Part shown: piece by piece, positions 2 to 13,305 of the stretch
How the letters are laid out: each line of letters starts with the position of its first letter
How positions within the stretch are numbered: the stretch's first letter is position 1
NCBI GenBank assembly: GCA_018653085.1
Contig: JABIAY010000057.1
Coordinates: 3,198-67,197, forward strand
Source of the DNA: Nitrospina sp.
GTDB taxonomy: Bacteria; Nitrospinota; Nitrospinia; Nitrospinales; VA-1
Direction of reading: 5' to 3'
DNA: 64,000 bases
The notes under the pieces: generated by a model
Told to the model about the DNA's origin: nothing
Databases searched by the model: none
The model's input: the letters and a program-made list of their open reading frames with translations, nothing else
Made by a program: the position numbers and the translations under genes

Positions 2-304
2 GCGGACAGGGTCAACCGACTGCACTCCATCCCCGAGCGGTTCGGAATTGAAACAGCGTTGAAGATGGCCCTTGCCTCGCATATGGCGATGGTGGTTTTT
101 TTGCTGGTCTTATTGGAACCCACAGTTCTTTTAGGCGGGGTCTATTTGACGGGGGTGGCGTTGGTGACGGGTCTATTGGTTTACGAACATTCGCTGATCA
201 AAAAAGACGATTTGTCGAAAGTGAACATGGCTTTCTTCAACGTCAACGGCATCATAAGTATCGGACTGATGATATTCGTTGTCGTGGACTGCGTTTGGGT
301 TTGA
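2..304 (+). CDS. UbiA-family polyprenyltransferase, C-terminal fragment (5' end lies outside the window)
   Basis: The frame is open from the window edge: ADRVNRLHSIPERFGIETAL precedes the listed TTG at 59. The TM-rich C-terminus (LVTGLLVYEHSLIKKDDLSKVNMAFFNVNG) resembles 4-hydroxybenzoate / dihydroxynaphthoate prenyltransferases. Confidence 0.6.
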   Translation, partial: ADRVNRLHSIPERFGIETALKMALASHMAMVVFLLVLLEPTVLLGGVYLTGVALVTGLLVYEHSLIKKDDLSKVNMAFFNVNGIISIGLMIFVVVDCVWV

Positions 305-452
305 AGAGTTGATGCTTTCCCGAATAAAAGCTCGTAAAAGTATGGAATAGATCAGGCTTTTCTTGTATCTTTCCTACTGAGCTTTATTAAAAGTCAAACT
401 TAGGGAGCTTTTCTTGTCTAAATGCTTGAGAGAAGAACAGGGGAGTCCCTCG

Positions 453-887
453 ATGAGCAGGCGTGCGTTTTTTATTAACGCGTTGATGGGGGTCAGCCTG
501 CTTTCCGGAATTGCCCTGATGGCTTCCTATTTTGTTCGTTTCCTTTTTCCTGTCTCCAACGTCAAAGTCAGCCGCAAACTCTATGTCGGCGATGTCCGGC
601 AGATTCCTCCCGGAAAAAGCACTTCCTTCACCGATCTCAAAGGACAAAAACTGAATATTGTCAATACCGGGGATGAGTTCATCGCGCTTTCCACCAAGTG
701 CACGCATTTGGGTTGTCAGGTGTTCTGGAAAGAGCGTGAGAGGCTGTTTTTTTGTCCCTGTCATGACGGATTTTTTGATGAAAGAGGCAATGTAGTCAAG
801 GGTCCACCGCCTGCTCCACTCACAACCTACAAGGTGGAGGTGGTGGGGCAGGGTGTCTATATTTATGTGGATGAAGTCCATGTTTAA
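453..887 (+). CDS. Rieske [2Fe-2S] subunit of a cytochrome bc-type complex, with Tat signal
   Basis: Rieske boxes CTHLGC and CPCHDG are present. The twin-arginine N-terminus MSRRAFFINALMG follows an AGGGGAG SD, so ATG 453 is preferred over the TTG at 414. The stop overlaps the cytochrome b start region. Confidence 0.9.
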   Translation: MSRRAFFINALMGVSLLSGIALMASYFVRFLFPVSNVKVSRKLYVGDVRQIPPGKSTSFTDLKGQKLNIVNTGDEFIALSTKCTHLGCQVFWKERERLFFCPCHDGFFDERGNVVKGPPPAPLTTYKVEVVGQGVYIYVDEVHV

Positions 888-1941
888 AGAACTCAAATTC
901 GCAAGGGTGGTCGATTGGGTCAAGGAAAGGTTCCCTGTTGATGTGGAGGAGATGAAATCTCTTACCAACGAACCGGTCCCCAATCATTTGAAGCATTGGT
1001 GGTTTGCGTTGGGTGGCACACCCGCCATCTTGTTTGTCATTCAAATCGTCACGGGAGTTTTTCTCTTGTTTCATTATGTTCCCACACCTGAGCAGGCTTA
1101 CGAGAGTGTGGACAAGATCACGAACGAGGTGGCGTTTGGCTGGTATGTGCGAAGCCTGCATAAATGGGCCTCGGAATTAATGATTGTGACGGTCATGTTG
1201 CATATGTCTCGTGTTTTTTTCACTGGCGCATACCGGAAACCCCGGGAACTGAACTGGATGGTAGGGGTGGTCATCTTGTTTGTCACTTTAGGACTGGCTT
1301 TTACTGGTTACTCGCTCATTTATGATCAGCTTTCTTATTGGGCGGCGATGGTGGGAACAGAAATTGCCGCAAGTACCCCGGTTGTCGGTCCGCTTGCCGC
1401 CGATTTTATCCGTGGTGGCCCGGAAGTTTCAGGAAACACTCTGACCCGGTTTTTTGCTTTACATGTAGTCATATTTCCCGCGTTGCTGATCGGGTTGGTG
1501 GTGCTTCATATTGTATTTGTCCGCTTAAACGGGGTGACTCAGTTTGAGTTTGAAGGAGAAAGAAGATCGAGGCATAGAACCTTTCCGCTTTTTCCTGACC
1601 ATGTTCTTACAGAGGCCATGCTTGCAATACTGATTTTATATCTGTTGACCATGATGTCCGTTATTTTTCCGGCGGGTTTGGGTGACAGGGCAGACCCGTT
1701 GATAACGCCGGAACATATTAAGCCGGAATGGTATTTTTTCGCGTCGTTTCGTTGGCTGAAATTGACGAATGTCTATATTGGTATAGTCGGCCAGATATTT
1801 TTTGTGGGACTCATCATTGCATGGCCGTTCATTGATAAAGTTTTCGAAAGTAAATTTCCCAGGGCGGAACTGAGTGTCTGGATCGGGTTTTTAGGTTTTA
1901 CCTTTTACCTGATTTTGACAGTTTGGGAAGCGCTGGTATGA
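853..1941 (+). CDS. Cytochrome b (fused b6 / subunit IV-type, quinol-oxidising core subunit)
   Basis: It has a typical cytochrome b N-domain (WWFALGG..., paired His in TM helices, LHKWASELM) and a C-terminal PEWYF motif. The start is ambiguous: ATG 853, 865, 871 or 880, with the last overlapping the Rieske stop as ATGTTTAA. Confidence 0.9.
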   Translation: MSIFMWMKSMFKELKFARVVDWVKERFPVDVEEMKSLTNEPVPNHLKHWWFALGGTPAILFVIQIVTGVFLLFHYVPTPEQAYESVDKITNEVAFGWYVRSLHKWASELMIVTVMLHMSRVFFTGAYRKPRELNWMVGVVILFVTLGLAFTGYSLIYDQLSYWAAMVGTEIAASTPVVGPLAADFIRGGPEVSGNTLTRFFALHVVIFPALLIGLVVLHIVFVRLNGVTQFEFEGERRSRHRTFPLFPDHVLTEAMLAILILYLLTMMSVIFPAGLGDRADPLITPEHIKPEWYFFASFRWLKLTNVYIGIVGQIFFVGLIIAWPFIDKVFESKFPRAELSVWIGFLGFTFYLILTVWEALV

Positions 1942-1981
1942 ACAATAACTGACGGGCCAGAAAGTCAGAAAGTGGGGAACC

Positions 1982-3448
1982 ATGTCTCTCAATACAAAAA
2001 AAATAGTGATCGCGGTCATCGGGCTGTTTTTTATGGGCGCCCTTTTAATTGTGGGCGGCATTGAAAGCAATAAGCGGGTATTGGGCAAAAAGGCCTATAT
2101 AAAGGTCTCAGCTACCAGTGAAAACTGTGTGGACTGCCATACCGTCACCAGCCCTTCCCTAGTAGAGCAGTGGAGAGACTCTAAACATGCCTTGAAGGGA
2201 GTGGGCTGTGTAGAGTGTCATGCCGCAGAATCTACCGATGCGGATGCCTGGGAGCATGAAGGAACTTTGGTCGCAGTGGTGGTTTCCCCTAAAGATTGCT
2301 CGAAGTGCCACGCCGATGAGAACGAACAGTTTCAGGCTTCCCACCATGCGGATGCCGGGAAAATTATTGGTTCCCTGGATAATGTTCTGGCCGAAGTGAT
2401 AGAAGGCGATATGGGTCGGCTTTCGCTGAATGGGCAGTCCCCTGTGGCCATCAACGGTTGCTGGCAATGCCACGGTTCGGTAGTTAAAATTATGGCTGAT
2501 GGACGGCCCGACCCTGCTACCTGGCCCAATACGGGTATCGGAAGGATTAACCCGGATGGCAGTAAGGGCTCCTGTTCTGCTTGCCACTCCCGGCACCGGT
2601 TTTCGGTGGTGGTCTCCCGCCAGCCGGATAGTTGCGGCAAATGTCATATGGGCCCGGATCATCCACAAAAAGAAATTTATGAGGAGTCCAAACACGGCAT
2701 TGCCTTCAAAGCATTCAAGCAGGATATGAATCTGTCTGCCCAGCCCTGGAGGGCAGGCATTGAGTATTCCGCCGCACCGACTTGCGCGACCTGCCATATG
2801 AGTGCGACGGAAGAATTGCCGGTGACTCATGATGTCGGCATGAGGATCTCCTGGAACCTGCGTCCGCCGATCTCGGAAAAAATAGATGCCAAGGCGATTA
2901 AGGCAGGGGAACAGGTCGTGTCCTGGGAGGACAGAAGGGACAATATGAAAGCGGTCTGCTCGAAGTGTCATTCGGAAAATTATGTGGACGGTTTTTATCT
3001 GCAGTTTGACTCGGCGATCAATTTATATAATGAAAAATATGGCAAGCCCGCCACAGCCATCATCAAGATGATGAAAGCGGGAGGCGTGCTGACCTCTACC
3101 AACTTTGATGAAAAGTTGGAGTGGACCTATTTTTACCTTTGGCATCACGAAGGCAGACGTGCGCGTCATGGGGCTTCCATGATGGCTCCGGACTACACGC
3201 AATGGCATGGTTTTTTTGAAGTGGCCGAGAGGTTCTACATACATTTTGTGCCTGAGGTGCGCGAAGCCTGCGAGGATAGGATCCGTCAGGGAGGGGATGT
3301 GGCCAAGGCGGCAAAAGTGGTTCTGGCGGAACTGGATTCGATCCTGAACCGTGAGGAGCATATGTGGTTCCTTGGGAAAATGACCGGAGATGAAAAGGCC
3401 CGAAGAAAAGCGGCCGCCGAAGAATTTAAAAAACGCTATGCACAGTAA
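1982..3448 (+). CDS. Octahaem cytochrome c of the hydroxylamine oxidoreductase (HAO)-like family, with N-terminal membrane anchor or signal
   Basis: There are eight CXXCH motifs: CVDCH, CVECH, CSKCH, CWQCH, CSACH, CGKCH, CATCH, CSKCH. The C-terminal region (YFYLWHHEGRRARHGASMMAPDYTQWHGFFE) is HAO-family-like. An N-terminal hydrophobic helix IVIAVIGLFFMGALLIVGG is present. The gene starts 40 nt after cytochrome b. Confidence 0.8.
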   Translation: MSLNTKKIVIAVIGLFFMGALLIVGGIESNKRVLGKKAYIKVSATSENCVDCHTVTSPSLVEQWRDSKHALKGVGCVECHAAESTDADAWEHEGTLVAVVVSPKDCSKCHADENEQFQASHHADAGKIIGSLDNVLAEVIEGDMGRLSLNGQSPVAINGCWQCHGSVVKIMADGRPDPATWPNTGIGRINPDGSKGSCSACHSRHRFSVVVSRQPDSCGKCHMGPDHPQKEIYEESKHGIAFKAFKQDMNLSAQPWRAGIEYSAAPTCATCHMSATEELPVTHDVGMRISWNLRPPISEKIDAKAIKAGEQVVSWEDRRDNMKAVCSKCHSENYVDGFYLQFDSAINLYNEKYGKPATAIIKMMKAGGVLTSTNFDEKLEWTYFYLWHHEGRRARHGASMMAPDYTQWHGFFEVAERFYIHFVPEVREACEDRIRQGGDVAKAAKVVLAELDSILNREEHMWFLGKMTGDEKARRKAAAEEFKKRYAQ

Positions 3449-3454
3449 GCCGGC

Positions 3455-3556
3455 GCCACCACTAGGCGTGGGGCCGATGTGCAATCGCTTTTTTTTGCTA
3501 GCGACCGGTTAGCTCGGTTTAATCAACATTGTACAGTTCCCCCCTGATAAGGGGGG
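3455..3556 (+). repeat. Intergenic repeat, family 1 copy (CCACCACTAGGCGTGGGGCC... module) plus a CCCCCCTGATAAGGGGGG palindrome
   Basis: This copy aligns by eye with 27311-27412 and with the 98-bp units at 37876-38169. The palindrome at 3539-3556 recurs at 46634-46649. Confidence 0.8.
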
Positions 3557-3558
3557 TT

Positions 3559-3590
3559 AGACTTTCCAGATTCTGGAGAGTCTTTTTTTT
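3559..3590 (+). terminator. Rho-independent terminator after the Rieske/cyt b/octahaem operon
   Basis: The hairpin AGACTTTCCAGA-t-TCTGGAGAGTCT is followed by T8. Confidence 0.75.
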
Positions 3591-3742
3591 ACAAAAAATC
3601 AGGGCGTGTTTATGGAATATTTTATATCAAATAAGACCTTATAAGTAGAGCCCTGAGTTTGTTAGGGCGGTGATGGAGTCGGTTTCACCTAAGGGGTGTG
3701 ATGCCGGGCTTGTAACTCTAAAAGTTTACGGAGGTAAATGAG

Positions 3743-4999
3743 ATGAGTGAACTTCATGGCAGGAGAGGGGTGGATGGTTTTTTGGTGAAGATGTTGGCTG
3801 TGATGATTTTACTTTCGCTGGCCCTTCTTCTTGTTCCGGTAAAAGATGCCGAAGCGGTTTCGCAATGGTCGCGTAAATATAAAGTGGAATGCAGTACCTG
3901 CCATGTAGCTTTTCCCCGCTTGAATCATTTTGGTGAACAGTTTATGAAGAATGGTTTCCAGTGGCCGGGCGGACCTCCTGATGGTGATAAAGAAGGTAAA
4001 GAAGAGATTTCTGATCAATTGGTTATCGATGAGGTTGGCAACTGGTTGGGAGCCCGGTTGAGCTTGACTCCTTTAAAATTTGAGAGCAACAGCTTAACCA
4101 GAAACAATCAACTCGATGATCAGTTGACGGTGGGAAACACCAAATGGTTGCAGTTTTTTGTTGCGGGTTCCCTCTTCAAGAATGTTTCCATATTCATTGA
4201 GCAGGAGTTTACCGTTGATAGCAGTTTATTCAATTGGTATCACCTGGGGTTCCACAACCTTTATGGAACCTATGTGAACTTTCAGGTGGGGCGAATATCT
4301 CCGGTGGACTTTACTCCGCTTTCCGACCGGCTTCGTCAATGGGCCAAGTCGGATGTAATGAATGTCAATTCCTCTCCCGGAACGTCATCGAGTGAGAACG
4401 CTATCAATGTTCGAACGGATCGACCTGGTTTGCAATATTACGGTTATAAAGGGCCCTGGACCTGGTTTGCCGGGATCGACAATGGGAAGGATGCTACAGA
4501 CACAGACAGTTCTAAGAATTACTGGCTTGGGTTCAAGGCTGAACTTCCGGAGACCGCTAAAAGTGCCTTTGTCGGTAGCAGTGTCGGTTACCATTTTTAC
4601 CAGGGGACAGATAACATTAGCACCTCAACAGCACAAATCACCAACAGGTTTTACCGGCACACGTTCTCCACTAATATCCGCTACAACGAAAACCTGGATA
4701 TCCAGGCTGTTTATCAGTCCGGAAATGATGAAAACGGGACTCTTGCCGCCAGCGCAGTGGAGACTGACTTTGACGGTTTCACTATCATCGCTGGATACCG
4801 GGATTATGACTGGTGGTACATTCTGCAATATGACAATGTAAACTCCAGCGATCTTCCCGCTATTGAGAAGGACAGGATATCCCCCTCTGTCTGGTACTTT
4901 CTCAGGGACAATTTCAAGGCAGGGTTGGCGGTGAGGTTGGACCTTAATGAAAACACTGTGAACCATGAGGCGGCTTTTGAGATTCGCACCATGTTCTGA
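3743..4999 (+). CDS. Cyc2-like fused monohaem cytochrome c / outer-membrane beta-barrel porin (candidate)
   Basis: It has a GGAGG SD and a signal peptide ending AEA|VS. A single N-terminal haem motif sits in the context WSRKYKVECSTCHVAFPRLNHFGEQFMKNGF. About 370 aa of alternating beta-strand-like sequence follow, rich in G/Y/N/D turns and ending in an OMP-type C-terminal Phe (FEIRTMF). Confidence 0.6.
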   Translation: MSELHGRRGVDGFLVKMLAVMILLSLALLLVPVKDAEAVSQWSRKYKVECSTCHVAFPRLNHFGEQFMKNGFQWPGGPPDGDKEGKEEISDQLVIDEVGNWLGARLSLTPLKFESNSLTRNNQLDDQLTVGNTKWLQFFVAGSLFKNVSIFIEQEFTVDSSLFNWYHLGFHNLYGTYVNFQVGRISPVDFTPLSDRLRQWAKSDVMNVNSSPGTSSSENAINVRTDRPGLQYYGYKGPWTWFAGIDNGKDATDTDSSKNYWLGFKAELPETAKSAFVGSSVGYHFYQGTDNISTSTAQITNRFYRHTFSTNIRYNENLDIQAVYQSGNDENGTLAASAVETDFDGFTIIAGYRDYDWWYILQYDNVNSSDLPAIEKDRISPSVWYFLRDNFKAGLAVRLDLNENTVNHEAAFEIRTMF

Positions 5000-5015
5000 T
5001 TTGCAGTAGAGTTTG

Positions 5016-5052
5016 CCTCCCTTCCCCGGTCGGGGTAGGGAGGTTTTTTTTT
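5016..5052 (+). terminator. Rho-independent terminator after the Cyc2-like gene
   Basis: The hairpin CCTCCCTTCCCCGgtCGGGGTAGGGAGG is followed by T9. Confidence 0.8.
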
Positions 5053-5782
5053 AAAGGCTGTTTAAAATTTCCCGGCGTTTTTTCTCATATTCTTCTTTAC
5101 TGATCAATTCTTCCCGTTTCAACTCCTCTAAAACCTTCAGCCTCTCTTTTACGTTAGCGCCATCTTTCTGTTGGGGTTCCTTAAGCACATGTTTTGGGTT
5201 GGGATGGAAACTGGTGAACAGGACCCAATTGGTCATGTCCTGAATCAGATTTTTTTGGCGCTCATGGTTTTTATGTTTTTGCCCGCTCAAAGGAACCAAT
5301 CTCCATGAGTCTCCCGCAATGCTGAAGTCACCTATTTTACGTTTAGAGCGTTTGAGTGTTGTGATTCTCCAGTTCATTCCCTGGCTTGTTAAAAAGGTGT
5401 CCCCTTTCAGCAGGGTTTTCCCTTGACGATTTTTGATTTGGTAGATAACGCGATGATTTTTACTGGCCAGGGCGAATTGCTGTTTGATCCTGGGCGCGAG
5501 GACCTCTACATCGCTTGAGGAAAACACCCTTTTTTTCGAGGACCATGAAACTTTGCGCTCCTGATAAGCCAATGACTGCATGAATCTTTGCAGGGTCTTC
5601 AGGCTGAAAGCATAAGGTTGAATTATCTTCAGGCGGTAGTTGTTTTTTTCCTGATCCTTTAGCGGCGCAATTGCCACGGAATAGTTATGGTCAATATTTC
5701 GGGGTTGACAGAAGGCTTCAACTGCCAGAAGGGAGGACAAAAACACCAGGAATGCTACTCTGAAGAGATGAGGTTTGGGCAT
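5051..5782 (-). CDS. Secreted hypothetical protein with a C-terminal SHOCT-like short helical domain
   Basis: It has a signal peptide (MPKPHLFRVAFLVFLSSLLAVEA). The C-terminus ERLKVLEELKREELISKEEYEKKRREILNSL resembles SHOCT. It lies immediately downstream of the trihaem cytochrome on the same strand. Confidence 0.55.
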   Translation of the reverse strand: MPKPHLFRVAFLVFLSSLLAVEAFCQPRNIDHNYSVAIAPLKDQEKNNYRLKIIQPYAFSLKTLQRFMQSLAYQERKVSWSSKKRVFSSSDVEVLAPRIKQQFALASKNHRVIYQIKNRQGKTLLKGDTFLTSQGMNWRITTLKRSKRKIGDFSIAGDSWRLVPLSGQKHKNHERQKNLIQDMTNWVLFTSFHPNPKHVLKEPQQKDGANVKERLKVLEELKREELISKEEYEKKRREILNSL

Positions 5783-5801
5783 CTAGTTGTGAATAACAAA
5801 T

Positions 5802-6137
5802 TCAAGGTTTGACATGGCATTTTTTGCATGATTTCTTGACACTGAAGGCCTTTTCCCCGTCATGACAGGCTCCGCAGAACTTGCCTCTTTTCATGCTTCG
5901 TTTATTCAGGGCTTTATCCGAATCTGAACTGCCGGTTTTTTTTTGAAAAATGCTGTCATGGCAGTCTGTGCATTGATTGCCAGCCTGACTGTGTTTGTCG
6001 TGACTGAAAATAGCCGGCGCAAACTTTTTAGTATCCTTAAACCAGATGTCTCCGCCGTGCTTCTCCGCGCTGATTGCAGAAACAGGCAGGGAGAAGGCGA
6101 CTATTAATGCCAATGTTGCTGTAATGATGCGACCCAT
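5802..6137 (-). CDS. Periplasmic trihaem c7/c3-type cytochrome c
   Basis: It carries three CXXCH motifs (CTDCH, CGACH, CKKCH) in the pattern FSHDKH...C..CH...CGACHDG.KAF....C..CH. A signal peptide MGRIITATLALIVAFSLPVSAISA is present. The ATG at 6137 follows a GAGGGAAG SD and is preferred over 6182. Confidence 0.8.
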   Translation of the reverse strand: MGRIITATLALIVAFSLPVSAISAEKHGGDIWFKDTKKFAPAIFSHDKHSQAGNQCTDCHDSIFQKKTGSSDSDKALNKRSMKRGKFCGACHDGEKAFSVKKSCKKCHVKP

Positions 6138-6372
6138 AGTTTCTTCCCTCTTCTCTTGACTAAACGGCAATCTACTCTTCATTCAACTCATTTTAGCATA
6201 GCCCCAAATGGAAAACCGAAAAGGCCTGTCTTAGCGACAACTGTTTAGTTGTAAAAAATATTTACATTATTCTCGGTTTGGTAAAAAATAGTTGGCAAAA
6301 ATCTGCCGGGCATTTAGGGCACTCATCTTGTAACACTTTATAAATTAGTGAGTTAATGTTTTGATGGTGTTT

Positions 6373-6388: not shown

Positions 6389-6552
6389 AATACCAATGCT
6401 TAAGGGCAAGGCATTGATACTTTGCCAGGATATGGAGAAGAAAGAGTGGGTTTTCCTATTTAAGGAATCGAAGTTACTGGGTTGCGCGTTTTGTTCCTCT
6501 GGGAATAGATTAGGTTATAATGCAAAACTTCTCATTTTTTGGAGTTTTACAG

Positions 6553-7659
6553 ATGCTTTTTGAGTTTGAAGATTCAACATTGAAACCTGTTTTTGAAAAA
6601 GTGAAGGCAGGGCTCCGCCTTTCCTATGAGGATGGAGTCACCCTTTGGCAAACTCCTGATTTGCTGGGTGTGGGGTATATGGCCAATCTGGTGCGGGAAA
6701 GGTTGAACGGGGACAAAACCTATTTTATTCACAACCGGCATATCAATCCGACTAATATTTGTATTCACAGTTGTCAGTTTTGTGCTTTTGGAGTCAAGGC
6801 GGATCACCCTGATGCTTATGAAAAGTCATTGCAGGATATTTTTTCGGATGCGGAGAAATATAATGGTGGAGACGTCAGTGAATTTCATATCGTGGGTGGA
6901 CTGCATCCGGACCTTCCGTTTGGATATTATCTCGAACTGCTGGAAGGATTAAAAGAACGCTTCCCGTTGGTTCATATACAGGCGTTTACAGCTGTGGAGG
7001 TGGAATACTTTTCCCATCTGGCGAAGCTTCCTCTAAAAGACACGCTGGAAAAATTAAAGCAGGCTGGTTTGGGTTCTATCCCAGGCGGCGGTGCGGAGAT
7101 TTTTGCCAAACGGGTGCGTCGAAAAATTTGCGGCGAGAAGATCGATGGCGAAGGTTGGTTGCGGGTTCATGAAACGGCCCATCTTGCCGGACTAAAAAGC
7201 AATGCCACTATGCTTTATGGACATTTGGAAACCGCAGAAGAAAGATCGGACCATCTGGTGCGCCTGCGTGAATTGCAGGACCGGACTCATGGTTTTGTGA
7301 CATTTATTCCGTTAGCGTTTCACCCGGAAAACACCGTGTTAGATTTTTTAAAAACTACACCGGGGCAATTGGATCTCAGGGCGCTAGCGGTTTCAAGATT
7401 GATGCTGGATAATTTTCCACATATGAAAGCATTCTGGATCATGATCACACCTAAAATAGCCCAGTTGGCCCAGTCTTTTGGGGCGGATGATATGGATGGA
7501 ACGGTTGTCGAAGAGAAGATCGTTCATGCCGCCGGTGCGGCCACAGATCAGGTTTTTCATAAGGATCAAATCATTCACATGATTACACAGTCTGGAAGAA
7601 AGCCTGTAGAGCGAGATACTTTGTATGAAAACGTTGAGGAATTGGAGGGGGCATATTAG
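6553..7659 (+). CDS. Radical SAM menaquinone-biosynthesis enzyme of the futalosine pathway (MqnE/MqnC family, aminofutalosine-synthase-like)
   Basis: It has the CIHSCQFCAF radical-SAM cluster motif in the context YFIHNRHINPTNIC, followed by FHIVGGLHPDLPFGYYLELL. ATG 6553 with a TGGAG SD is preferred. A TATAAT box at 6514-6519 would exclude ATG 6520. Confidence 0.75.
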   Translation: MLFEFEDSTLKPVFEKVKAGLRLSYEDGVTLWQTPDLLGVGYMANLVRERLNGDKTYFIHNRHINPTNICIHSCQFCAFGVKADHPDAYEKSLQDIFSDAEKYNGGDVSEFHIVGGLHPDLPFGYYLELLEGLKERFPLVHIQAFTAVEVEYFSHLAKLPLKDTLEKLKQAGLGSIPGGGAEIFAKRVRRKICGEKIDGEGWLRVHETAHLAGLKSNATMLYGHLETAEERSDHLVRLRELQDRTHGFVTFIPLAFHPENTVLDFLKTTPGQLDLRALAVSRLMLDNFPHMKAFWIMITPKIAQLAQSFGADDMDGTVVEEKIVHAAGAATDQVFHKDQIIHMITQSGRKPVERDTLYENVEELEGAY

Positions 7660-8921: not shown

Positions 8922-11762
8922 ATGAACGATTCAAATAAAGAAGAACCGGTTGCTCCTGACCCGACTGATGGTAGCGAATCAGATCAGGGTGACGGAATGG
9001 GTGAAATCGTCAATGAGTTCCTGGTCGAAAGCTATGAAAACCTGGACCAGTTGGACCAAGATCTGGTTGATTTGGAGCAGGACCCTGGTGACATAAACAT
9101 TCTCTCCAGCATTTTCAGGACCATCCATACCATAAAAGGCACCTGTGGCTTCATCGGTTTCAACAAACTGGAATCTGTGGCGCATATTGGTGAAAACCTG
9201 TTGGGGAAGTTGCGGGATGGCGAACTGAAATTGAGTCCCGCCCGAACCAGTGCTCTTCTGGCTATGGTGGATGCCATTCGTCAGATGCTTTCCTGCATCG
9301 AAAATGATCAAAATGAAGGCAGTGTGGATTATTCCGGTCTGGTTGAAACTTTGACCCGGTTGCAAACGGATGATGGAGCGGCCGAGGCAGTTCCCCCTGT
9401 TGCGGAAACGAAGGAAGAAGTTGCTGTCGAAACGAAACAGGAAGAACCGGCTCCTGAACCTGTCAAGCCTTCTGCTGAAATTGACGAGGATATGGAACCT
9501 ATCGTCAACGAGTTTCTGGTAGAGAGTTATGAGAATCTGGATCGCCTTGATAAAGACCTCATTGAACTGGAGCAGGACCCCGGCAATACAGAAATCCTTT
9601 CCAGCATTTTCAGGACCATCCATACCATAAAAGGTACCTGCGGTTTTATTGGCTTGCACAAACTGGAAAGAGTTGCCCATGTTGGAGAAAACCTGTTGGG
9701 TAAACTTCGGGATGGTGATCTGGCTTTGAATCCTCCAAGAACCAGTGCCCTGTTGGCAATGGTGGATGCTATCCGGCAAATGCTGGACTGTATTGAGAAG
9801 GATCGTGACGAAGGGGATGTGGACTATTCAAAACTGGTGGATACCCTGGGTAAACTGCTGACCGATGCAGGTTGTGCCGAAGTGGCAACTTCCGCACCTG
9901 CTTCCAAGCCTGCGGAAGAGAAAAAAGAAGAGCCCAAAAAATTCGTTGCCGCAGAGGATAAAAAGGATCGCAGGAAGGCTCCTTCGGCGGAAGAGGCAGA
10001 ACATATAGCCAAGAATGGAGACAAACGCGCTACTACAGACCGGCGTAAAGAAACCCGGGGTGTGGCGGATTCCAGCATTCGTGTGGATGTGGATATCCTC
10101 GATCGGCTGATGAATCTTGTTGGGGAACTGGTTCTGGCTAGAAACCAGATACTGCAATATGCTCCCGCCAAGAGCGACTCTTCGTTTATTGCAACCAGCC
10201 AGCATTTGAACCTGGTTACTACGGAATTGCAGGAAGGTGTCATGAAAACCCGGATGCAACCCATTGGCAATATCTGGAGCAAGTTTCCCCGTGTTGTTCG
10301 GGATCTTTCCATGGCCGTTGGTAAAAAGATTCGCCTGGAGATGGAAGGCAAGGAGACGGAACTGGACAAGACGCTGATCGAAGCGATCAAAGATCCTCTG
10401 ACACATATTGTCAGGAACTCCTGCGACCATGGAATAGAATCTCCCGAAAAACGTTTGGAAAATGGCAAGGATGAAGAGGGTGTTTTGTTATTGCGCGCTT
10501 TCCACGAGGGAGGACAGGTCAATATTGAGATCATTGATGATGGTGGCGGGATTGATCCTGAGAAAATTAAAAAGATAGCTCTTAGTAAAAATGTTATCAC
10601 GCAGGAACAGGCGGACAGAATGGGTGATCAGGAACTGGTCAACCTTATTTTTGCCGCCGGATTTTCTACTGCCGAAAAGGTGACCAATGTGTCCGGACGG
10701 GGCGTGGGCATGGATGTGGTTCGTACCAATATTGAGAAAATTGGTGGAACCGTAGTTATTAATAGCTTTCCCGGAAAAGGCACGACCTTGCGAGTCAAGA
10801 TTCCTCTTACTCTGGCAATCATTCCGGCTCTGATTATCACCACTGCCGGGGAACGTTACGCCATTCCGCAGGTGAACCTGCTTGAACTGGTTCGTCTTGA
10901 CGGGGAGGAGGCCAAGAAGTCTGTTGAACAGATTCAGGGTGCTCCGGTTTATCGCTTGCGCGGTAACCTGCTTCCTTTGGTTTCCCTCAATGATGCGTTG
11001 AAGATAGAAGAGGAAGAAGAAAGCGAGGCTATTAATATCGTTGTTCTGCATGCAGACGACCGCCAGTTTGGTCTGGTGGTTGAAGGAATCAGCGATACCG
11101 AGGAAATTGTGGTCAAGCCGCTGAGTAAACAGCTCAAAGGTATCTCCGCATTTTCAGGGGCAACCATAATGGGGGATGGAAAACTGGCATTGATTCTAGA
11201 TGTCATGGGGCTTGCCCAAAAATCCAGCGTTATTTCCGGTCATCAGGATAAGAGTCTCGCCAAAGCGGCATCAGCCCAGGGAGACGCAGGTGATCGTCAA
11301 ACCCTGCTCATCTTTGGTCTGGAGGCAGATGATCGCATGGCGATACCGTTGTCTGAGGTTGCACGTCTGGAAGAATTTAAACGCTCAGAAGTTGAGCAAT
11401 CGGGTGAACAGGATGTGGTGCAGTATCGTGGAGAAATTATGCCTCTGGTTTACCTTAAAAAGGTTCTGCATGGAGATTCCCAGCAGGAAGATTCCCCACA
11501 GGAAGATGCTGATACGGAATTGATGCAGTCTATTGTTTTCACCAAGGATGGCAGGAGCGTTGGGCTGGTCGTTGAGCGCATCGTCGATATTGTGGAAGAA
11601 TCGGTAACGGTTAAACGCGGGGCCAACCGCCCTGGGGTACTGGGAACCATTGTTGTGCAAGATCGGGTGACCGACCTTCTTGACATTGAAAGTGTGGTTG
11701 CATCTGCCGACCCTAGTTTCCTGGTTGATACACAAAGTGTTGCATTATTAGAGGAGGCTTGA
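8922..11762 (+). CDS. cheA: Chemotaxis histidine kinase CheA with two Hpt (P1) domains and two C-terminal CheW-like domains
   Basis: Two near-identical Hpt domains each carry FRTIHTIKGTCGF. They are followed by a dimerisation region, an HATPase_c domain (DDGGGID, GRGVGMD) and two CheW-like modules (ERYAIPQVNLLELV... and DRMAIPLSEVARLEEF...). Confidence 0.95.
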   Translation: MNDSNKEEPVAPDPTDGSESDQGDGMGEIVNEFLVESYENLDQLDQDLVDLEQDPGDINILSSIFRTIHTIKGTCGFIGFNKLESVAHIGENLLGKLRDGELKLSPARTSALLAMVDAIRQMLSCIENDQNEGSVDYSGLVETLTRLQTDDGAAEAVPPVAETKEEVAVETKQEEPAPEPVKPSAEIDEDMEPIVNEFLVESYENLDRLDKDLIELEQDPGNTEILSSIFRTIHTIKGTCGFIGLHKLERVAHVGENLLGKLRDGDLALNPPRTSALLAMVDAIRQMLDCIEKDRDEGDVDYSKLVDTLGKLLTDAGCAEVATSAPASKPAEEKKEEPKKFVAAEDKKDRRKAPSAEEAEHIAKNGDKRATTDRRKETRGVADSSIRVDVDILDRLMNLVGELVLARNQILQYAPAKSDSSFIATSQHLNLVTTELQEGVMKTRMQPIGNIWSKFPRVVRDLSMAVGKKIRLEMEGKETELDKTLIEAIKDPLTHIVRNSCDHGIESPEKRLENGKDEEGVLLLRAFHEGGQVNIEIIDDGGGIDPEKIKKIALSKNVITQEQADRMGDQELVNLIFAAGFSTAEKVTNVSGRGVGMDVVRTNIEKIGGTVVINSFPGKGTTLRVKIPLTLAIIPALIITTAGERYAIPQVNLLELVRLDGEEAKKSVEQIQGAPVYRLRGNLLPLVSLNDALKIEEEEESEAINIVVLHADDRQFGLVVEGISDTEEIVVKPLSKQLKGISAFSGATIMGDGKLALILDVMGLAQKSSVISGHQDKSLAKAASAQGDAGDRQTLLIFGLEADDRMAIPLSEVARLEEFKRSEVEQSGEQDVVQYRGEIMPLVYLKKVLHGDSQQEDSPQEDADTELMQSIVFTKDGRSVGLVVERIVDIVEESVTVKRGANRPGVLGTIVVQDRVTDLLDIESVVASADPSFLVDTQSVALLEEA

Positions 11763-11763
11763 C

Positions 11764-12204
11764 ATGACTGAGCAAAAACAATTTTGTACTTTCTATCTCG
11801 ACAACCATATGTTTGGGGTGAAAGTTGAACAGGTTCAGGAGGTTTTTCGTTACCAGGCGATGACTAAAGTTCCTCTGGCACCTCCCGAAGTGCGTGGGCT
11901 GATCAATCTGCGTGGTCAAATTATCACGGCCCTTGATCTAAGGCGGCGGTTAGGTATGGAAGTCCGGTCTGAAGACAAGTTGCCCATGAATGTGGTGGTG
12001 AGAACGGAAGATGGGGTAGTGAGTCTTCTGGTTGATGAAATCGGAGATGTGCTGGAAGTGTCCGAAGATGTTCATGAACGACCGCCTGAAACCGTCCCTG
12101 AAGGGGTAAGGAAACTGGTGCTGGGTGTCTATAAATTGGAAGGCAAGTTGCTGTTGATTTTGGATTCTGAAAAAGCAGTGGATGTTGGTCACGCAGTAGC
12201 CTGA
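11764..12204 (+). CDS. cheW: Chemotaxis coupling protein CheW
   Basis: It has a CheW-like domain (FCTFYLDNHMFGVKVEQVQEV...GLINLRGQIITALDLRRRLG). The start lies 2 nt after the cheA stop. Confidence 0.9.
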   Translation: MTEQKQFCTFYLDNHMFGVKVEQVQEVFRYQAMTKVPLAPPEVRGLINLRGQIITALDLRRRLGMEVRSEDKLPMNVVVRTEDGVVSLLVDEIGDVLEVSEDVHERPPETVPEGVRKLVLGVYKLEGKLLLILDSEKAVDVGHAVA

Positions 12205-12213
12205 ACCCAACGG

Positions 12214-13305
12214 TTATATCCGCCCCACTTTCAATTTTGCGATGATTTTTTGCCCAACCTGGTTGAGCGGCAGAACTTCATCTGCCAGACCAGCCCGAGC
12301 GACAAAGCCGGGCATTCCCCATACCACGCTACTTTGTTCGTCCTGAACAATCACCTGGCCTCCTGCCTGCTTGATTTGTTCACAGCCTCTAAGGCCGTCC
12401 TGACCCATCCCTGTCAAAATAACCGCTAAGGTTTTGGCACCATAAATTTCCACGACAGATCGAAATAAAGGATCTACCGCAGGCCGGCAGGAATTTTCCT
12501 GAGGGTCCTGATTCGTTTGCAGATAAACCCCAGCTCCCTTTTTTTCAAGAACCATATGGTAGTCTCCCGGCGCGATCCAGGCTTTTCCCGGCTCGAGTTT
12601 TTCACCGGCTTTTCCTTCCTGAACTTCCAGCGGAGATTTCGCTGTCAGTCGTTCTGCAAGGAGCTTGGTGAAAAAGGGTGGCATATGTTGCACCAGAACT
12701 ATTGGCACAGGCAGATCACCCGGAAGAGTAGGGAAGAGCTCTGCCAGGGCATTGGGTCCGCCAGTGGAAACGCCGATTGCGAGAATATCGAATTTCTGGT
12801 TCGGGGACGCTTTGGCAAAAGAGGGTTTTACGGTTGGGGTGCCTGCTTTAGCGGCAGGTTTTGGAACGATAACCGATGAAGTTTGCAACCCCGCTTTTTT
12901 CGCACAAAATATTTTGATCTTGGGGATCAGTTCGTCTCGTATCCTTTGCATGGCAACCGATACGCTTCCCACATTTGCGGGTTTGGTGACATAATCCGTA
13001 GCCCCAAGAGCTAAAGCTTCCAAAGTTTTTGCCCCACCCCTCTCCGTAAGGGTGCTGAACATAATGATGGGTAAGGTGGGGTAGAGTTTTCGCGCTTCGG
13101 CGAGGGTTTCAAGCCCATCCATTTCTGGCATTTCAATATCCAGAGTCAGGATGTCGGGATTGATTTGTGGGATCTTTTGTAAGGCGATTTTACCGTTGGC
13201 GGCGGTAGCCACTACTTCAATATCAGGGTCGCCACTTAGCGTGTCGGTAACAATTTTCCTGACAACTACCGCATCGTCAACAACGAGTACCCTGATTTTT
13301 CGCAT
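12214..13305 (-). CDS. cheB: Chemotaxis protein-glutamate methylesterase CheB (receiver + methylesterase)
   Basis: It has an N-terminal receiver domain (IRVLVVDDAVVVR, DILTLDIEMPEMDG) and a CheB catalytic domain (AIGVSTGGPNAL, HMPPFFT, GMGQDG). It is convergent with cheW. Confidence 0.95.
   Translation of the reverse strand: MRKIRVLVVDDAVVVRKIVTDTLSGDPDIEVVATAANGKIALQKIPQINPDILTLDIEMPEMDGLETLAEARKLYPTLPIIMFSTLTERGGAKTLEALALGATDYVTKPANVGSVSVAMQRIRDELIPKIKIFCAKKAGLQTSSVIVPKPAAKAGTPTVKPSFAKASPNQKFDILAIGVSTGGPNALAELFPTLPGDLPVPIVLVQHMPPFFTKLLAERLTAKSPLEVQEGKAGEKLEPGKAWIAPGDYHMVLEKKGAGVYLQTNQDPQENSCRPAVDPLFRSVVEIYGAKTLAVILTGMGQDGLRGCEQIKQAGGQVIVQDEQSSVVWGMPGFVARAGLADEVLPLNQVGQKIIAKLKVGRI

What the first reader, a model, noticed from the sequence alone, without database searches (positions are those of the whole stretch)
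414..6137. Rieske/cytochrome b operon with an HAO-like octahaem subunit, followed by a Cyc2-like cytochrome-porin and a trihaem cytochrome: candidate outer-membrane-to-quinone electron conduit
Seen directly in the sequence:
- The Tat-signal Rieske gene (453-887) overlaps the cytochrome b start region (853/880-1941).
- An 8 x CXXCH membrane-anchored cytochrome (1982-3448) follows only 40 nt later, so the three genes look like one operon. It closes with a strong terminator at 3559-3590.
- Next comes a gene with its own SD and terminator (3743-4999). It encodes a signal peptide, one CXXCH motif and a long beta-barrel-like body ending in Phe.
- A trihaem periplasmic cytochrome and a secreted SHOCT protein lie on the opposite strand (5051-6137).
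- The block is bracketed by a UbiA-type prenyltransferase fragment (2-304) and an MqnE/MqnC-type radical-SAM enzyme (6553-7659). These are menaquinone-biosynthesis genes.

Established knowledge:
- Cyc2-type fused cytochrome-porins are the outer-membrane Fe(II) oxidases of acidophilic and neutrophilic iron oxidisers. They feed bc-type complexes in uphill electron-transport models.
- Rieske/cyt b complexes with HAO-like octahaem subunits have been proposed for anammox bacteria.

Inference:
- These genes may form a single module. It would link an extracellular or periplasmic redox substrate (Fe(II), or an N-oxide or hydroxylamine handled by the octahaem protein) to the menaquinone pool.
- I am not aware of this exact combination being described as a unit.
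Basis: partly seen in the sequence, partly recalled or inferred. Interest (0 to 1): 0.85.

Follow-up and report, generated by a model that had tools for sequence, protein, structure and literature searches.

The report
Nitrite-reductase bc operon beside Cyc2-like porin
A Nitrospina-like genome places a known type of quinol-linked octahaem (probable nitrite-reducing) cytochrome bc operon next to a variant of the Cyc2 outer-membrane iron-oxidase cytochrome-porin; the genes are real and correctly identified, but they look like two separate known modules rather than one new electron conduit.

Summary

- **Module A (453-3590).** This is a Rieske / unsplit cytochrome b / membrane-anchored HAO-family octahaem operon ending in a strong terminator. 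The same trio recurs in 7 of 8 sampled genomes, usually without any porin and twice followed by napDAB. The arrangement is already described in Nitrospira as an octahaem nitrite reductase coupled to the quinol pool.
- **Module B (3743-6182).** This is a fused monohaem cytochrome and 16-strand porin. It is homologous to Cyc2 but carries a variant signature, AxSQWSRKY instead of AxPxFAR[QK][TY], which none of 120 family members matches strictly. In Nitrospinota it sits next to a c7-type trihaem cytochrome and a secreted 243-aa protein of unknown function.
- **Link between the modules.** Modules A and B are adjacent only in this lineage and in one Deltaproteobacteria genome assembled from a metagenome (MAG). 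Related Nitrospinota keep them apart, so the "single conduit" reading is weakly supported.
- **What does support the general idea.** Across phyla, the Cyc2-variant family is often next to quinone-linked modules: Rieske/cyt b or NapC/NirT-type genes in 16 of 51 loci. Two of these are tight porin-cytochrome c-Rieske-cyt b-nonahaem operons. This gives real support to an outer-membrane-to-quinone link for the porin family in general.

The finding is of moderate interest, as a new variant of known kinds.

The parts
2..304 (+). C-terminal fragment of an MqnP/UbiA-type menaquinone prenyltransferase (context only, cut by the window edge)
   Evidence: NCBIfam MqnP models E 4e-24, partial; Pfam UbiA E 4.6e-7
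453..887 (+). Rieske [2Fe-2S] subunit with a Tat-type SRRAFF N-terminus (the longest ORF starts at 414)
   Evidence: PF00355 50.2 bits; closest NCBIfam models are b6f-type Rieske. The Shine-Dalgarno sequence and ATG at 453 were read directly.
853..1941 (+). Unsplit cytochrome b (b6 plus subunit IV fused, 362 aa); its start overlaps the end of the Rieske gene
   Evidence: PF00033 E 3.5e-53, PF13631, PF00032. The closest NCBIfam model is cytb_ExtP at 243 bits, below the cutoff of 290.
1982..3448 (+). Membrane-anchored HAO-family octahaem cytochrome c (ONR/epsilon-Hao-like), third gene of the operon
   Evidence: 8 CXXCH motifs. PF13447 96.1 bits. PDB 4qo5 (deposited as 'Hypothetical multiheme protein') E 1.2e-47, and hydroxylamine oxidoreductase entries E about 4e-20. 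90% identical to a protein annotated 'hydroxylamine oxidoreductase [Nitrospina sp.]'.
3559..3590 (+). Intrinsic terminator closing the Rieske-cyt b-octahaem operon
   Evidence: 11-bp stem, 3-nt loop, T7 run
3743..4999 (+). Cyc2-superfamily fused monohaem cytochrome and 16-strand outer-membrane porin, variant-motif clade (AVSQWSRKY-KVE-CSTCH-VAF-PRL)
   Evidence: Invariant C50/C53/H54 and C-terminal MF in 32 homologues. AlphaFold2 pLDDT 85.5 with 16 strands. Foldseek matches 16-strand porins including OprP and OprO. hhalign to canonical-motif proteins gives 98% probability. A profile search reaches canonical-motif proteins at E 1e-23 to 1e-29.
5015..5050 (.). GC-rich hairpin plus T9 between the convergent porin and 243-aa genes (probable bidirectional terminator)
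   Evidence: Read directly from the sequence
5051..5782 (-). Secreted 243-aa protein of unknown function with a C-terminal SHOCT-like helix; conserved partner of the c7 gene in Nitrospinota
   Evidence: Homologues at 40-42% identity next to c7 and the porin in L001, L008 and L010. Pfam SHOCT is below cutoff. The single-sequence AlphaFold2 model was unusable, pLDDT 45.5.
5802..6182 (-). Periplasmic c7-type trihaem cytochrome (probable start at 6137)
   Evidence: TIGR04257 75 bits against a cutoff of 40; PF14522. Three invariant CXXCH motifs plus conserved His residues in 4 Nitrospinota orthologues.
6520..7659 (+). Aminofutalosine synthase MqnE (context only)
   Evidence: TIGR03700 489.9 bits against a cutoff of 434.55

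Best explanation
The region holds two adjacent, separately transcribed respiratory modules of known kinds in a Nitrospinaceae-like genome.

**Module A (453-3590).** This is a three-gene operon: Rieske, unsplit cytochrome b, and a membrane-anchored HAO-family octahaem cytochrome.
- It most likely works as a menaquinol-oxidising complex. The Rieske/cyt b core would pass electrons to the octahaem subunit in the periplasm.
- There, nitrite (or hydroxylamine/NO) would be reduced, probably to ammonium.
- This would match the octahaem nitrite reductase (ONR) module of Nitrospira and the epsilon-Hao module of Caldithrix.
- Shown: gene identities, operon structure and conserved synteny. Inferred: substrate and direction.

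**Module B (3743-6182).** This is an outer-membrane fused monohaem cytochrome-porin of the Cyc2 superfamily, with a variant signature motif. A convergent two-gene unit encodes a periplasmic c7 trihaem cytochrome and a secreted 243-aa protein.
- By analogy with Cyc2, it most likely exchanges single electrons with a dissolved extracellular redox species such as Fe2+.
- It would then relay them to periplasmic cytochromes.
- Shown: homology, fold and a conserved partnership within Nitrospinota. Inferred: substrate, direction and periplasmic route.

**Adjacency.** The adjacency of A and B may reflect some sharing of the periplasmic cytochrome pool. It is not a conserved unit.
For: **Module A**
- Pfam, NCBIfam and PDB assignments.
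- Gaps of 40 nt or less, or overlaps, between the genes, and a strong terminator after the third gene.
- The same Rieske-cyt b-octahaem order in L076 (Nitrospinaceae), L077 (Leptospiraceae), L079, L034, the P0265 contig and the P0002 contig.
- napD-napA-napB directly downstream in L077 and L079. Glutamate synthase 2.5 kb downstream in L076.
- In L078 a NapC/NirT-type partner replaces the bc core.
- In Nitrospira, ONR and the two upstream Rieske/cyt b genes are co-expressed. They are proposed to reduce nitrite for assimilation using quinol (PMC6606698; PMC6311188). Caldithrix has an epsilon-Hao gene beside Rieske/cyt b genes.

**Module B**
- More than 130 homologues with an invariant CXXCH.
- A 16-strand barrel model matching OprP/OprO-type porins, as published for Cyc2.
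- Same spacing as the Cyc2 consensus, and the PxL motif is present.
- hhalign 98% probability, E 1.5e-13, against canonical-motif proteins.
- The family profile hits full-length canonical-motif proteins at E 1e-23 to 1e-29, and 18 of 33 of these pass the strict motif.
- porin + 243-aa + c7 are together in all 5 close Nitrospinota contexts.

**Separation of A and B**
- Each has its own terminator.
- The trio occurs without the porin in L076, L077, L079 and the P0265 contig.
- The porin module occurs without this trio in L001, L008 and L010.
Against: - No experiment or expression data exist for this organism.
- Orthology of the octahaem protein to the Nitrospira ONR was not tested directly.
- The tyrosine cross-link that separates oxidative from reductive HAOs could not be resolved. 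Alignment to Nitrosomonas HAO stops at chain residue about 404-410.
- The window has no nap or N-assimilation genes beside the trio.
- Adjacency of A and B recurs in the closest relative (P0002 contig, 79% porin identity).
- It also recurs independently in a Deltaproteobacteria MAG (L034), about 4 kb apart on the same strand.
- Bc-type complexes lie within 10 kb of the porin in 7-9 of 51 loci. Some functional coupling therefore cannot be excluded.
Confidence: 0.6

Rival explanations
1. All six genes form one conduit. Electrons from extracellular Fe(II) or another reductant enter through the Cyc2-like porin and pass via c7 to the octahaem subunit. They are then either pushed uphill through the Rieske/cyt b core into menaquinone, or used directly by the octahaem haem centre to reduce nitrite.
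For: - The genes are adjacent here and in the P0002 contig.
- There is an independent co-location of an orthologous trio (E 3.7e-149) with a family porin in L034.
- Rieske + cyt b lie within 10 kb in 7 of 51 distinct family loci, plus L052 (partial) and the P0002 contig. The figure is 0 of 21 for the distant Geobacteraceae-type loci.
- L004 and L042 are tight operons of porin, monohaem c, Rieske, cyt b and nonahaem cytochrome.
Against: - A strong terminator separates the octahaem gene from the porin gene.
- The trio is usually found without any porin, and its conserved neighbours are nap genes.
- Nitrospinota relatives carry the porin module with a different, split-b6 bc operon or with none.
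- The multihaem subunits in L004 and L042 are not HAO-type.
Confidence: 0.2
2. The Cyc2-variant porin works outward. Quinol-derived electrons leave the cell via NapC/NirT-type or bc-type quinol oxidases, periplasmic cytochromes and the porin haem, and reach an extracellular acceptor such as Fe(III), Mn(IV) or humics.
For: - The commonest operon in the family is porin, class-I monohaem c, NapC/NirT-family 3-4-haem protein (PF03264 above cutoff) and a small membrane protein.
- From general knowledge, NapC/NirT/CymA proteins are typically quinol dehydrogenases.
- The family is common in lineages generally regarded as mainly anaerobic or facultative: Aminicenantes, Ignavibacteria, Calditrichota, Marinimicrobia and Eisenbacteria.
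Against: - Validated Cyc2 proteins are Fe(II) oxidases with a potential near +208 mV (PMC8406198).
- Sideroxydans has a CymA-type protein in its Mto pathway (PMC13390432 and PMC12016527, listed). I recall that pathway being proposed to carry electrons inward, so the partner type does not fix the direction.
- The host here is related to aerobic nitrite oxidisers.
Confidence: 0.12
3. The porin mainly serves as a substrate channel (for example for nitrite or another anion) for the neighbouring periplasmic reductase. Its haem would have a sensing or protective role rather than a respiratory one.
For: - The barrel matches anion-selective OprP and OprO among its hits.
- Haem-free AlgE-type porin genes (PF13372) lie beside the Rieske-cyt b-octahaem-napDAB clusters in L077 and L079.
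Against: - The invariant haem motif and the conserved haem-domain signature are shared with Cyc2.
- The most frequent neighbours are cytochromes: 34 of 51 loci have another c-type cytochrome within 5 kb.
- In most loci there is no N-oxide reductase nearby.
Confidence: 0.06

Closest known systems
Nitrospira octahaem nitrite reductase (ONR/OCC) with two upstream Rieske/cytochrome b genes (N. moscoviensis, N. japonica)
   Same: The gene order is the same: Rieske, cytochrome b, octahaem cytochrome of the HAO/multihaem family. The host is related to nitrite oxidisers. A link to the quinol pool is proposed in both cases (PMC6606698, PMC6311188).
   Different: Direct orthology was not tested here. 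In Nitrospira the cluster sits in an N-assimilation region. Here it sits between menaquinone-biosynthesis genes and next to a Cyc2-like gene.
Epsilon-Hao reductive octahaem protein beside Rieske/cyt b in the Nap cluster of Caldithrix abyssi
   Same: An HAO-family octahaem gene lies adjacent to Rieske and cyt b genes. Homologues of the window's trio are followed by napDAB in L077 and L079.
   Different: There are no nap genes in this window. Absence of the cross-linking tyrosine was not established here.
Cyc2 fused cytochrome-porin Fe(II) oxidase (Mariprofundus PV-1, Acidithiobacillus ferrooxidans, Leptospirillum Cyt572)
   Same: Shared features are a signal peptide, a single CXXCH, a conserved upstream signature with identical spacing, a PxL motif downstream, a 16-strand OprO/OprP-like barrel and a length above 365 aa. 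Profile-level homology is significant.
   Different: The signature here is A-x-S-Q-W-S-R-K-Y rather than A-x-P-x-F-A-R-[QK]-[TY]. None of 120 family members passes the published screen. The partners differ too: c7 trihaem plus a 243-aa protein here, and monohaem c plus a NapC/NirT-type protein or a bc complex elsewhere. Fe(II) oxidation is untested.
Geobacter sulfurreducens extHIJKLMNOPQS cluster
   Same: An outer-membrane porin gene is clustered with multihaem cytochromes, a Rieske protein (ExtO) and a b-type cytochrome (ExtP) (PMC5877670). The window's cyt b scores best against the ExtP model.
   Different: The paper describes ExtI as a porin-like protein and lists the cluster's c-type cytochromes separately from it. 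The Geobacter cytochromes are 4- to 12-haem proteins, not HAO-type. The cyt b match is below the ExtP cutoff.
Anammox Rieske/cyt b complexes with HAO-like subunits (Kuenenia)
   Same: A Rieske/cyt b core is encoded with an HAO-family octahaem protein. The octahaem protein matches Kuenenia HAO-like structures (6h5l, 4n4j) at E 1e-16 to 1e-21.
   Different: No extra NAD(P)-linked or further haem subunit genes are present here. The closest solved relative is PDB 4qo5, not an anammox protein.
Sideroxydans MtoA-MtoB-MtoD-CymA Fe(II) oxidation cluster
   Same: The family-level operon (outer-membrane redox porin, small monohaem c, NapC/NirT-type inner-membrane cytochrome) has the same three-compartment logic.
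   Different: Mto uses a separate decahaem MtoA inside the MtoB porin, whereas here the haem domain is fused to the porin. In this window a c7 trihaem replaces the monohaem c, and there is no NapC-type gene.

Membership tests
Cyc2 fused cytochrome-porin (definition of Keffer et al. 2021, PMC8406198) | N-terminal signal peptide followed by a single CXXCH | tested here: met
   There is a hydrophobic N-terminus ending AEA-VS, then a single CSTCH at residues 50-54. C50, C53 and H54 are invariant in 32 aligned homologues. No dedicated signal-peptide predictor was run.
Cyc2 fused cytochrome-porin (definition of Keffer et al. 2021, PMC8406198) | AXPXFAR[Q/K][T/Y] signature upstream of CXXCH (used as an inclusion screen, PXFAR[Q/K][T/Y]) | tested here: not met
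   The window has AVSQWSRKY with the same 3-residue spacing. None of 120 family members matches P.FAR[QK][TY]. The typical family motif is [SA]Q[WF][SA]RKY.
Cyc2 fused cytochrome-porin (definition of Keffer et al. 2021, PMC8406198) | PXL motif just downstream of CXXCH | tested here: met
   CSTCH-VAF-PRL in the window. 113 of 120 family members have P-x-[LV] at this position.
Cyc2 fused cytochrome-porin (definition of Keffer et al. 2021, PMC8406198) | 16-strand beta-barrel porin, at least 365 aa, OprO/OprP-like | tested here: met
   The protein is 418 aa. The AlphaFold2 model has pLDDT 85.5 and pTM 0.83, with 16 strands between residues 102 and 417. Foldseek against PDB hits 16-strand porins including 2o4v (OprP) and 4rjw (OprO) at E 6e-11 to 7.5e-10.
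Cyc2 fused cytochrome-porin (definition of Keffer et al. 2021, PMC8406198) | Detectable sequence homology to proteins carrying the canonical signature | tested here: met
   hhalign of A1 against A2 (relatives of the Methylocystis plasmid protein WP_165050654, which carries AVPSFARQT) gives 98% probability and E 1.5e-13 over 121 columns. The A1 profile finds full-length proteins at E 1e-23 to 1e-29, and 18 of 33 of these have the strict motif. No biochemically validated Cyc2 sequence was available for comparison.
Cyc2 fused cytochrome-porin (definition of Keffer et al. 2021, PMC8406198) | Score above the FeGenie Cyc2 HMM cutoffs; Fe(II) oxidase activity | not testable with these tools
HAO / octahaem multihaem cytochrome c family | Eight CXXCH motifs and a match to the family model and to solved members | tested here: met
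   8 CXXCH motifs. PF13447 96.1 bits against a cutoff of 21.9. PDB 4qo5 E 1.2e-47 (7.9e-66 with the family profile). Hydroxylamine oxidoreductase entries 1fgj, 4fas and 6m0p, plus 6h5l, 4n4j and hydrazine dehydrogenase 6hif, at E 1e-15 to 1e-26.
HAO / octahaem multihaem cytochrome c family | Cross-linking tyrosine that marks oxidative (hydroxylamine/hydrazine-oxidising) members | tested here: inconclusive
   HMMER alignments to Nitrosomonas HAO end at chain residue about 404-410, before the tyrosine region. No residue-level structural alignment tool was available.
Quinol-linked octahaem nitrite reductase module (Nitrospira ONR / epsilon-Hao with Rieske/cyt b) | Conserved gene order Rieske, cytochrome b, octahaem cytochrome as one operon | tested here: met
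   In the window there is one overlap and one 40-nt gap, with a terminator after the third gene. The same order occurs in 7 of 8 sampled contexts.
Quinol-linked octahaem nitrite reductase module (Nitrospira ONR / epsilon-Hao with Rieske/cyt b) | Association with nitrogen-oxide or N-assimilation genes | tested here: inconclusive
   This feature is met in relatives: napDAB in L077 and L079, and GOGAT near the trio in L076. It is not met in the window itself, whose neighbours are mqnP, mqnE, the Cyc2-like gene and chemotaxis genes.
Quinol-linked octahaem nitrite reductase module (Nitrospira ONR / epsilon-Hao with Rieske/cyt b) | Orthology to the Nitrospira ONR; nitrite-reducing activity | not tested
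   No Nitrospira ONR sequence was retrieved. Only the best 120 of more than 8000 hits were listed, and none was named Nitrospira.
Anammox-type Rieske/cyt b complexes | Additional subunits beyond Rieske, cyt b and an octahaem protein (NAD(P)-linked and extra haem subunits, from my own knowledge of the Kuenenia clusters) | tested here: not met
   There are only three genes between the upstream intergenic region and the terminator at 3559.
c7-type trihaem cytochrome (PpcA-like) | Three CXXCH motifs in a domain of about 70 residues matching the family model | tested here: met
   TIGR04257 75 bits against a cutoff of 40; PF14522 59.3 bits against a cutoff of 24.8. The motifs are invariant in 4 orthologues.

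The most novel reading that the evidence does not exclude
The Cyc2-variant porin and the c7 cytochrome deliver electrons from extracellular Fe(II) (or another reductant) to the HAO-type octahaem subunit of the neighbouring Rieske/cyt b complex. This would give a relative of nitrite oxidisers one of two things. It could be an Fe(II)-driven periplasmic nitrite reduction, or a dedicated bc-type entry point for uphill electron flow into menaquinone. More broadly, this motif-variant Cyc2 clade would be the outer-membrane end of a family of conduits that are hard-wired to quinone-linked modules. These are bc complexes in some phyla and NapC/NirT-type proteins in others.
Probability: 0.13. Interest if true: 0.8.

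Novelty: new variant of a known kind. Interest (0 to 1): 0.4.

Why it matters
How electrons taken up by Cyc2-type outer-membrane cytochromes reach the quinone pool is still largely a model, not a demonstrated route.

- **A possibly overlooked clade.** This family fails the published Cyc2 motif screen in all 120 members checked, yet is clearly homologous. Surveys that apply that screen could therefore miss it. It occurs in Nitrospinota, Aminicenantes, Ignavibacteria, Calditrichota and other phyla.
- **Genetic linkage to quinone-linked modules.** The family is repeatedly next to Rieske/cyt b or NapC/NirT-type genes. L004 and L042, where the linkage is a tight operon, are better test cases for such a link than this window.
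- **Reading of this window.** The practical message is more sober. The octahaem bc operon is most simply read as the known quinol-linked nitrite-reductase type. Its adjacency to the Cyc2-like gene should not be taken as proof of a combined pathway.

Tried and rejected
- **Family libraries.** Pfam and NCBIfam gave no hit for the porin.
- **Retrieving a validated Cyc2 sequence.**
  - The supplements of the Keffer paper hold no sequences.
  - The N-terminal alignment in the supplement of PMC9769843 is machine-read and visibly corrupted, so it was not used.
  - The supplements of PMC11995701 mention neither the MAG OFTM324 nor cyc2.
  - tblastn against plasmids gave one weak hit (E 0.03). This turned out to be a canonical-motif protein on a Methylocystis plasmid, and it was used as the bridge.
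- **Tyrosine cross-link of the octahaem protein.** Alignments stop short of the relevant region.
- **243-aa protein.** Single-sequence AlphaFold2 gave pLDDT 45.5 and was unusable. An alignment-based job was not possible, because homologues from fetched loci are not accepted by that tool.
- **Menaquinone-gene bracket as functional evidence.** Rejected. It is conserved only in the closest relative, where toxin-antitoxin genes are inserted, and it is absent in L076, L001, L008 and L010.
- **Rest of the window.** It holds only chemotaxis and housekeeping genes and one tRNA-Arg, with no nxr, oxidase or nitrogen-metabolism genes to fix the physiology.

Full report
**Observation**

- **Rieske.** ORF 414-887, with a probable ATG at 453 preceded by GGGGAG and encoding MSRRAFF. 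It matches PF00355.
- **Cytochrome b.** 853-1941, overlapping the end of the Rieske gene. It is an unsplit 362-aa protein (PF00033 E 3.5e-53 plus PF00032). Its best NCBIfam model is the Geobacter ExtP b-type cytochrome, below cutoff.
- **Octahaem.** 1982-3448, starting 40 nt after cyt b. It has eight CXXCH motifs and an N-terminal hydrophobic anchor, and matches PF13447 (96.1 bits against a cutoff of 21.9).
- **Terminator.** The best terminator-like site in the first 8 kb lies at 3559-3583 and is followed by T7.
- **Porin-cytochrome.** 3743-4999 has its own GGAGG Shine-Dalgarno sequence. A GC-rich hairpin with T9 separates it from the convergent genes.
- **Convergent genes (minus strand).** A c7-type trihaem cytochrome lies at 5802-6137/6182 (TIGR04257, 75 bits against a cutoff of 40). 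A secreted 243-aa protein lies at 5051-5782, and its SHOCT match is below threshold.
- **Flanks.** An MqnP fragment and MqnE, the latter above its equivalog cutoff.

**The octahaem operon**

- The octahaem protein is 90% identical to a protein annotated 'hydroxylamine oxidoreductase [Nitrospina sp.]'. It belongs to a very large family, with more than 8000 scored hits at 55-60% identity across many phyla.
- Its closest solved relative is PDB 4qo5, deposited as 'Hypothetical multiheme protein' (E 1.2e-47). I recall this entry as the membrane-associated octahaem cytochrome of Ignicoccus hospitalis.
- Next come hydroxylamine oxidoreductase entries, Kuenenia HAO-like proteins and hydrazine dehydrogenase.
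- I sampled eight genomic contexts. Rieske-cyt b-octahaem occurs in the same order in seven:
  - the window;
  - the P0002 contig;
  - L034;
  - L076, a Nitrospinaceae MAG with 80% identity, no porin nearby and glutamate synthase 2.5 kb downstream;
  - L077, Leptospiraceae;
  - L079;
  - the P0265 contig.
- In L077 and L079 the trio is followed directly by napD-napA-napB. In L078 (Teredinibacter) a NapC/NirT-type cytochrome replaces the bc core.
- This matches published descriptions.
  - Nitrospira moscoviensis and N. japonica carry an octahaem nitrite reductase with two upstream Rieske/cyt b genes. The three are co-expressed and are proposed to couple assimilatory nitrite reduction to the quinone pool (PMC6606698; PMC6311188).
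  - Caldithrix abyssi has an epsilon-Hao gene beside Rieske/cyt b genes in its Nap cluster (PMC5317091).
  - Lücker et al. noted bc-like operons with octahaem cytochromes in Nitrospina gracilis, Kuenenia and Methylomirabilis (PMC3578206).
- The trio is therefore a new member of a known kind.
- I could not determine whether the protein has the cross-linking tyrosine of oxidative HAOs, because the alignments stop before that region.

**The porin-cytochrome**

- The protein has no Pfam or NCBIfam match. It has more than 130 homologues, all unannotated, in Nitrospinota, Aminicenantes, Thermodesulfobacteriota, Marinimicrobia, Bacteroidota, Nitrospirota, Eisenbacteria and an Arcobacter MAG.
- In 32 aligned sequences, C50, C53, H54 and the terminal MF are invariant.
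- The AlphaFold2 model built with this alignment is confident (pLDDT 85.5, pTM 0.83) and shows 16 strands.
- Foldseek against PDB returns 16-strand general porins, including OprP (2o4v) and OprO (4rjw). These are the templates reported for Cyc2 (PMC8406198).
- Keffer et al. define Cyc2 by three features: a signal peptide, one CXXCH, and the signature AXPXFAR[Q/K][T/Y] upstream with PXL downstream. They screened their tree by the PXFAR[Q/K][T/Y] part.
- The window reads AVSQWSRKY-KVE-CSTCH-VAF-PRL. The spacing is the same, the A, R, K and Y positions and the PxL motif are kept, but P, F and A are replaced.
- None of 120 family members passes the strict pattern.
- Homology is nevertheless clear.
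  - More distant relatives in genome contigs grade into S-x-FARKY (Gemmatimonadota) and AIPAFTRQY (Geobacteraceae).
  - A canonical-motif protein on a Methylocystis plasmid (AVPSFARQT-GQP-CATCH-TAF-PEL) and its relatives align to the family profile. The hhalign probability is 98% and the E-value 1.5e-13, over the haem domain and the first strands.
  - An exhaustive profile search of 1.84 billion representatives finds 83 clusters at E <= 1e-30, 954 at <= 1e-10 and 3212 at <= 1e-3.
  - Of 33 relatives at E 1e-23 to 1e-29, most are aligned over nearly the full length and 18 carry the strict canonical motif.
- I therefore file the protein as a motif-variant clade of the Cyc2 superfamily, not as Cyc2 in the strict sense.
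- cyc2-like genes in Nitrospinaceae MAGs have been reported (PMC11995701). L010 comes from a MAG whose 'OFTM' isolate prefix matches the MAG names in that paper, but I could not confirm that this exact gene was the one called.

**Is it one module?**

- In the five close Nitrospinota contexts, the porin is always accompanied by the convergent c7 gene and the 243-aa gene. These contexts are the window, the P0002 contig, L001, L008 and L010. That three-gene set is the conserved unit.
- The octahaem trio is next to this unit only in the window and the P0002 contig. In the P0002 contig, toxin-antitoxin genes are inserted between mqnP and the Rieske gene.
- L001 and L008 have a different bc operon a few kb away on the other strand, with a split b6 and other multihaem cytochromes. 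L010 has no bc operon in the available flank. L076 has the trio alone.
- Together with the terminator at 3559, this argues for two independent transcription units and against a fixed six-gene module.
- On the other hand, across 51 distinct family loci:
  - 7 have both Rieske and cyt b within 10 kb, plus L052 (partial) and the P0002 contig;
  - 11 have a NapC/NirT-family cytochrome, with Pfam above cutoff in the two I scanned;
  - 16 have one or the other;
  - 20 have an adjacent monohaem class-I cytochrome c;
  - 34 have some other c-type cytochrome within 5 kb.
- None of the 21 distant Geobacteraceae-type loci has a bc complex.
- With one to three bc operons per genome, chance adjacency within 20 kb would be roughly 1%. 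This is my estimate, not a computed control.
- Two loci are tight operons.
  - L004: monohaem c, porin, Rieske (23 nt later), cyt b, nonahaem cytochrome, NapC-type cytochrome and a small membrane protein.
  - L042: porin, monohaem c (4 nt later), Rieske, cyt b and nonahaem cytochrome.
- L034 carries an orthologous octahaem trio (E 3.7e-149) about 4 kb upstream of porin, monohaem c and a NapC-type gene, all on the same strand.
- The general idea that this porin family is wired to quinone-linked modules is therefore supported. The specific claim that the HAO-type bc operon of this window is its partner is only weakly supported.

**Comparison with known systems**

- The closest precedents for the trio are the Nitrospira ONR module and the epsilon-Hao modules.
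- For the porin, the closest precedent is Cyc2.
- For an outer-membrane porin clustered with Rieske and cyt b genes, it is the Geobacter extHIJKLMNOPQS cluster (PMC5877670).
- For the family-level operon logic, it is the Sideroxydans Mto pathway with its CymA-type cytochrome.
- Anammox-type Rieske/cyt b complexes share the HAO-like subunit. As far as I know, they include additional subunits that are absent here.

**Verdict**

- The most likely reading (confidence about 0.6) is two adjacent modules of known kinds.
- The combined-conduit reading gets about 0.2. A more specific novel version, Fe(II)-driven nitrite reduction or uphill entry through the octahaem subunit, gets about 0.13.
- Interest is moderate (0.4). 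Its value lies in the variant Cyc2 clade and its recurrent linkage to quinone-linked modules in other phyla.

Noticed in passing
L004:9440-15159 and L042:9989-14401: These are tight same-strand operons combining the Cyc2-variant porin, a class-I monohaem cytochrome c, Rieske, unsplit cytochrome b and a nonahaem cytochrome. L004 adds a NapC/NirT-type cytochrome and a 78-aa membrane protein. They are the strongest genetic link seen here between a Cyc2-type protein and a bc complex.
   Followed up: partly
L006:10001-12523, L012, L016, L033, L053 and others: The commonest operon of the family outside Nitrospinota is porin, monohaem cytochrome c (115-172 aa), a NapC/NirT-family protein of about 200 aa with 3-4 haems, and a 73-95 aa ORF. 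This parallels the MtoB/MtoA-MtoD-CymA logic.
   Followed up: partly
L057-L072 (Geobacteraceae and Desulfuromonadaceae MAGs), porin ORFs near 10000-11500: This is a distant subfamily of longer fused cytochrome-porins (465-541 aa) with the signature AIPAFTR[QA][YNH]. Each is preceded by a 9-10-haem cytochrome and followed by a monohaem cytochrome of about 120 aa, in a conserved block with two other ORFs (319-331 and 249-258 aa).
   Followed up: no
L077:11557-13344 and L079:3118-4440: Haem-free AlgE-type outer-membrane barrel genes (PF13372) lie beside the Rieske-cyt b-octahaem-napDAB clusters. They may be an anion channel for the periplasmic reductases.
   Followed up: no
L075:4833-8603 (Methylocystis sp. 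MJC1 plasmid NZ_CP107559.1): A 553-aa canonical-motif Cyc2-type cytochrome-porin (AVPSFARQT...CATCH) is annotated as hypothetical. It is followed by three c-type cytochrome genes on a 354-kb plasmid of a methanotroph. Its family is very large, with 4991 hits among 8000 scored candidates.
   Followed up: partly
L002/L007/L009 (Aminicenantes MAGs), about 9495-12845: The porin gene sits between a 101-aa RtcB fragment and a full-length 473-aa RtcB gene, both on the opposite strand. This looks as if the porin gene was inserted at a partial rtcB duplication. No cytochrome genes are nearby.
   Followed up: no
P0002 contig, between mqnP and the Rieske gene: The closest relative has five extra genes inserted upstream of the Rieske gene: DUF6883, DUF4926, a 219-aa ORF, and a PhdYeFM antitoxin with a ParE toxin. 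These are absent from the window.
   Followed up: no
window 8922-11762: The CheA histidine kinase carries two nearly identical N-terminal Hpt domains (roughly residues 25-140 and 185-300). It lies in a cheY-cheX-cheA-cheW cluster, with cheB on the opposite strand.
   Followed up: no
window 34147-34602 and 35456-35965 (minus strand): These are two paralogous small secreted proteins with similar signal peptides (MKKAILFVAVSAF and MKKVILFVTVSAF). Neither has a Pfam match.
   Followed up: no
window 387-983 (minus strand): A 198-aa ORF lies antisense to the Rieske gene and the start of cyt b. It is almost certainly a spurious shadow ORF.
   Followed up: no
window 39343-42390: This is a 1015-aa protein combining a membrane (MFS-like) region, a spermidine-synthase-like domain and C-terminal TPR repeats. 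A similar 866-aa spermine-synthase-domain gene lies near the trio in L076.
   Followed up: no
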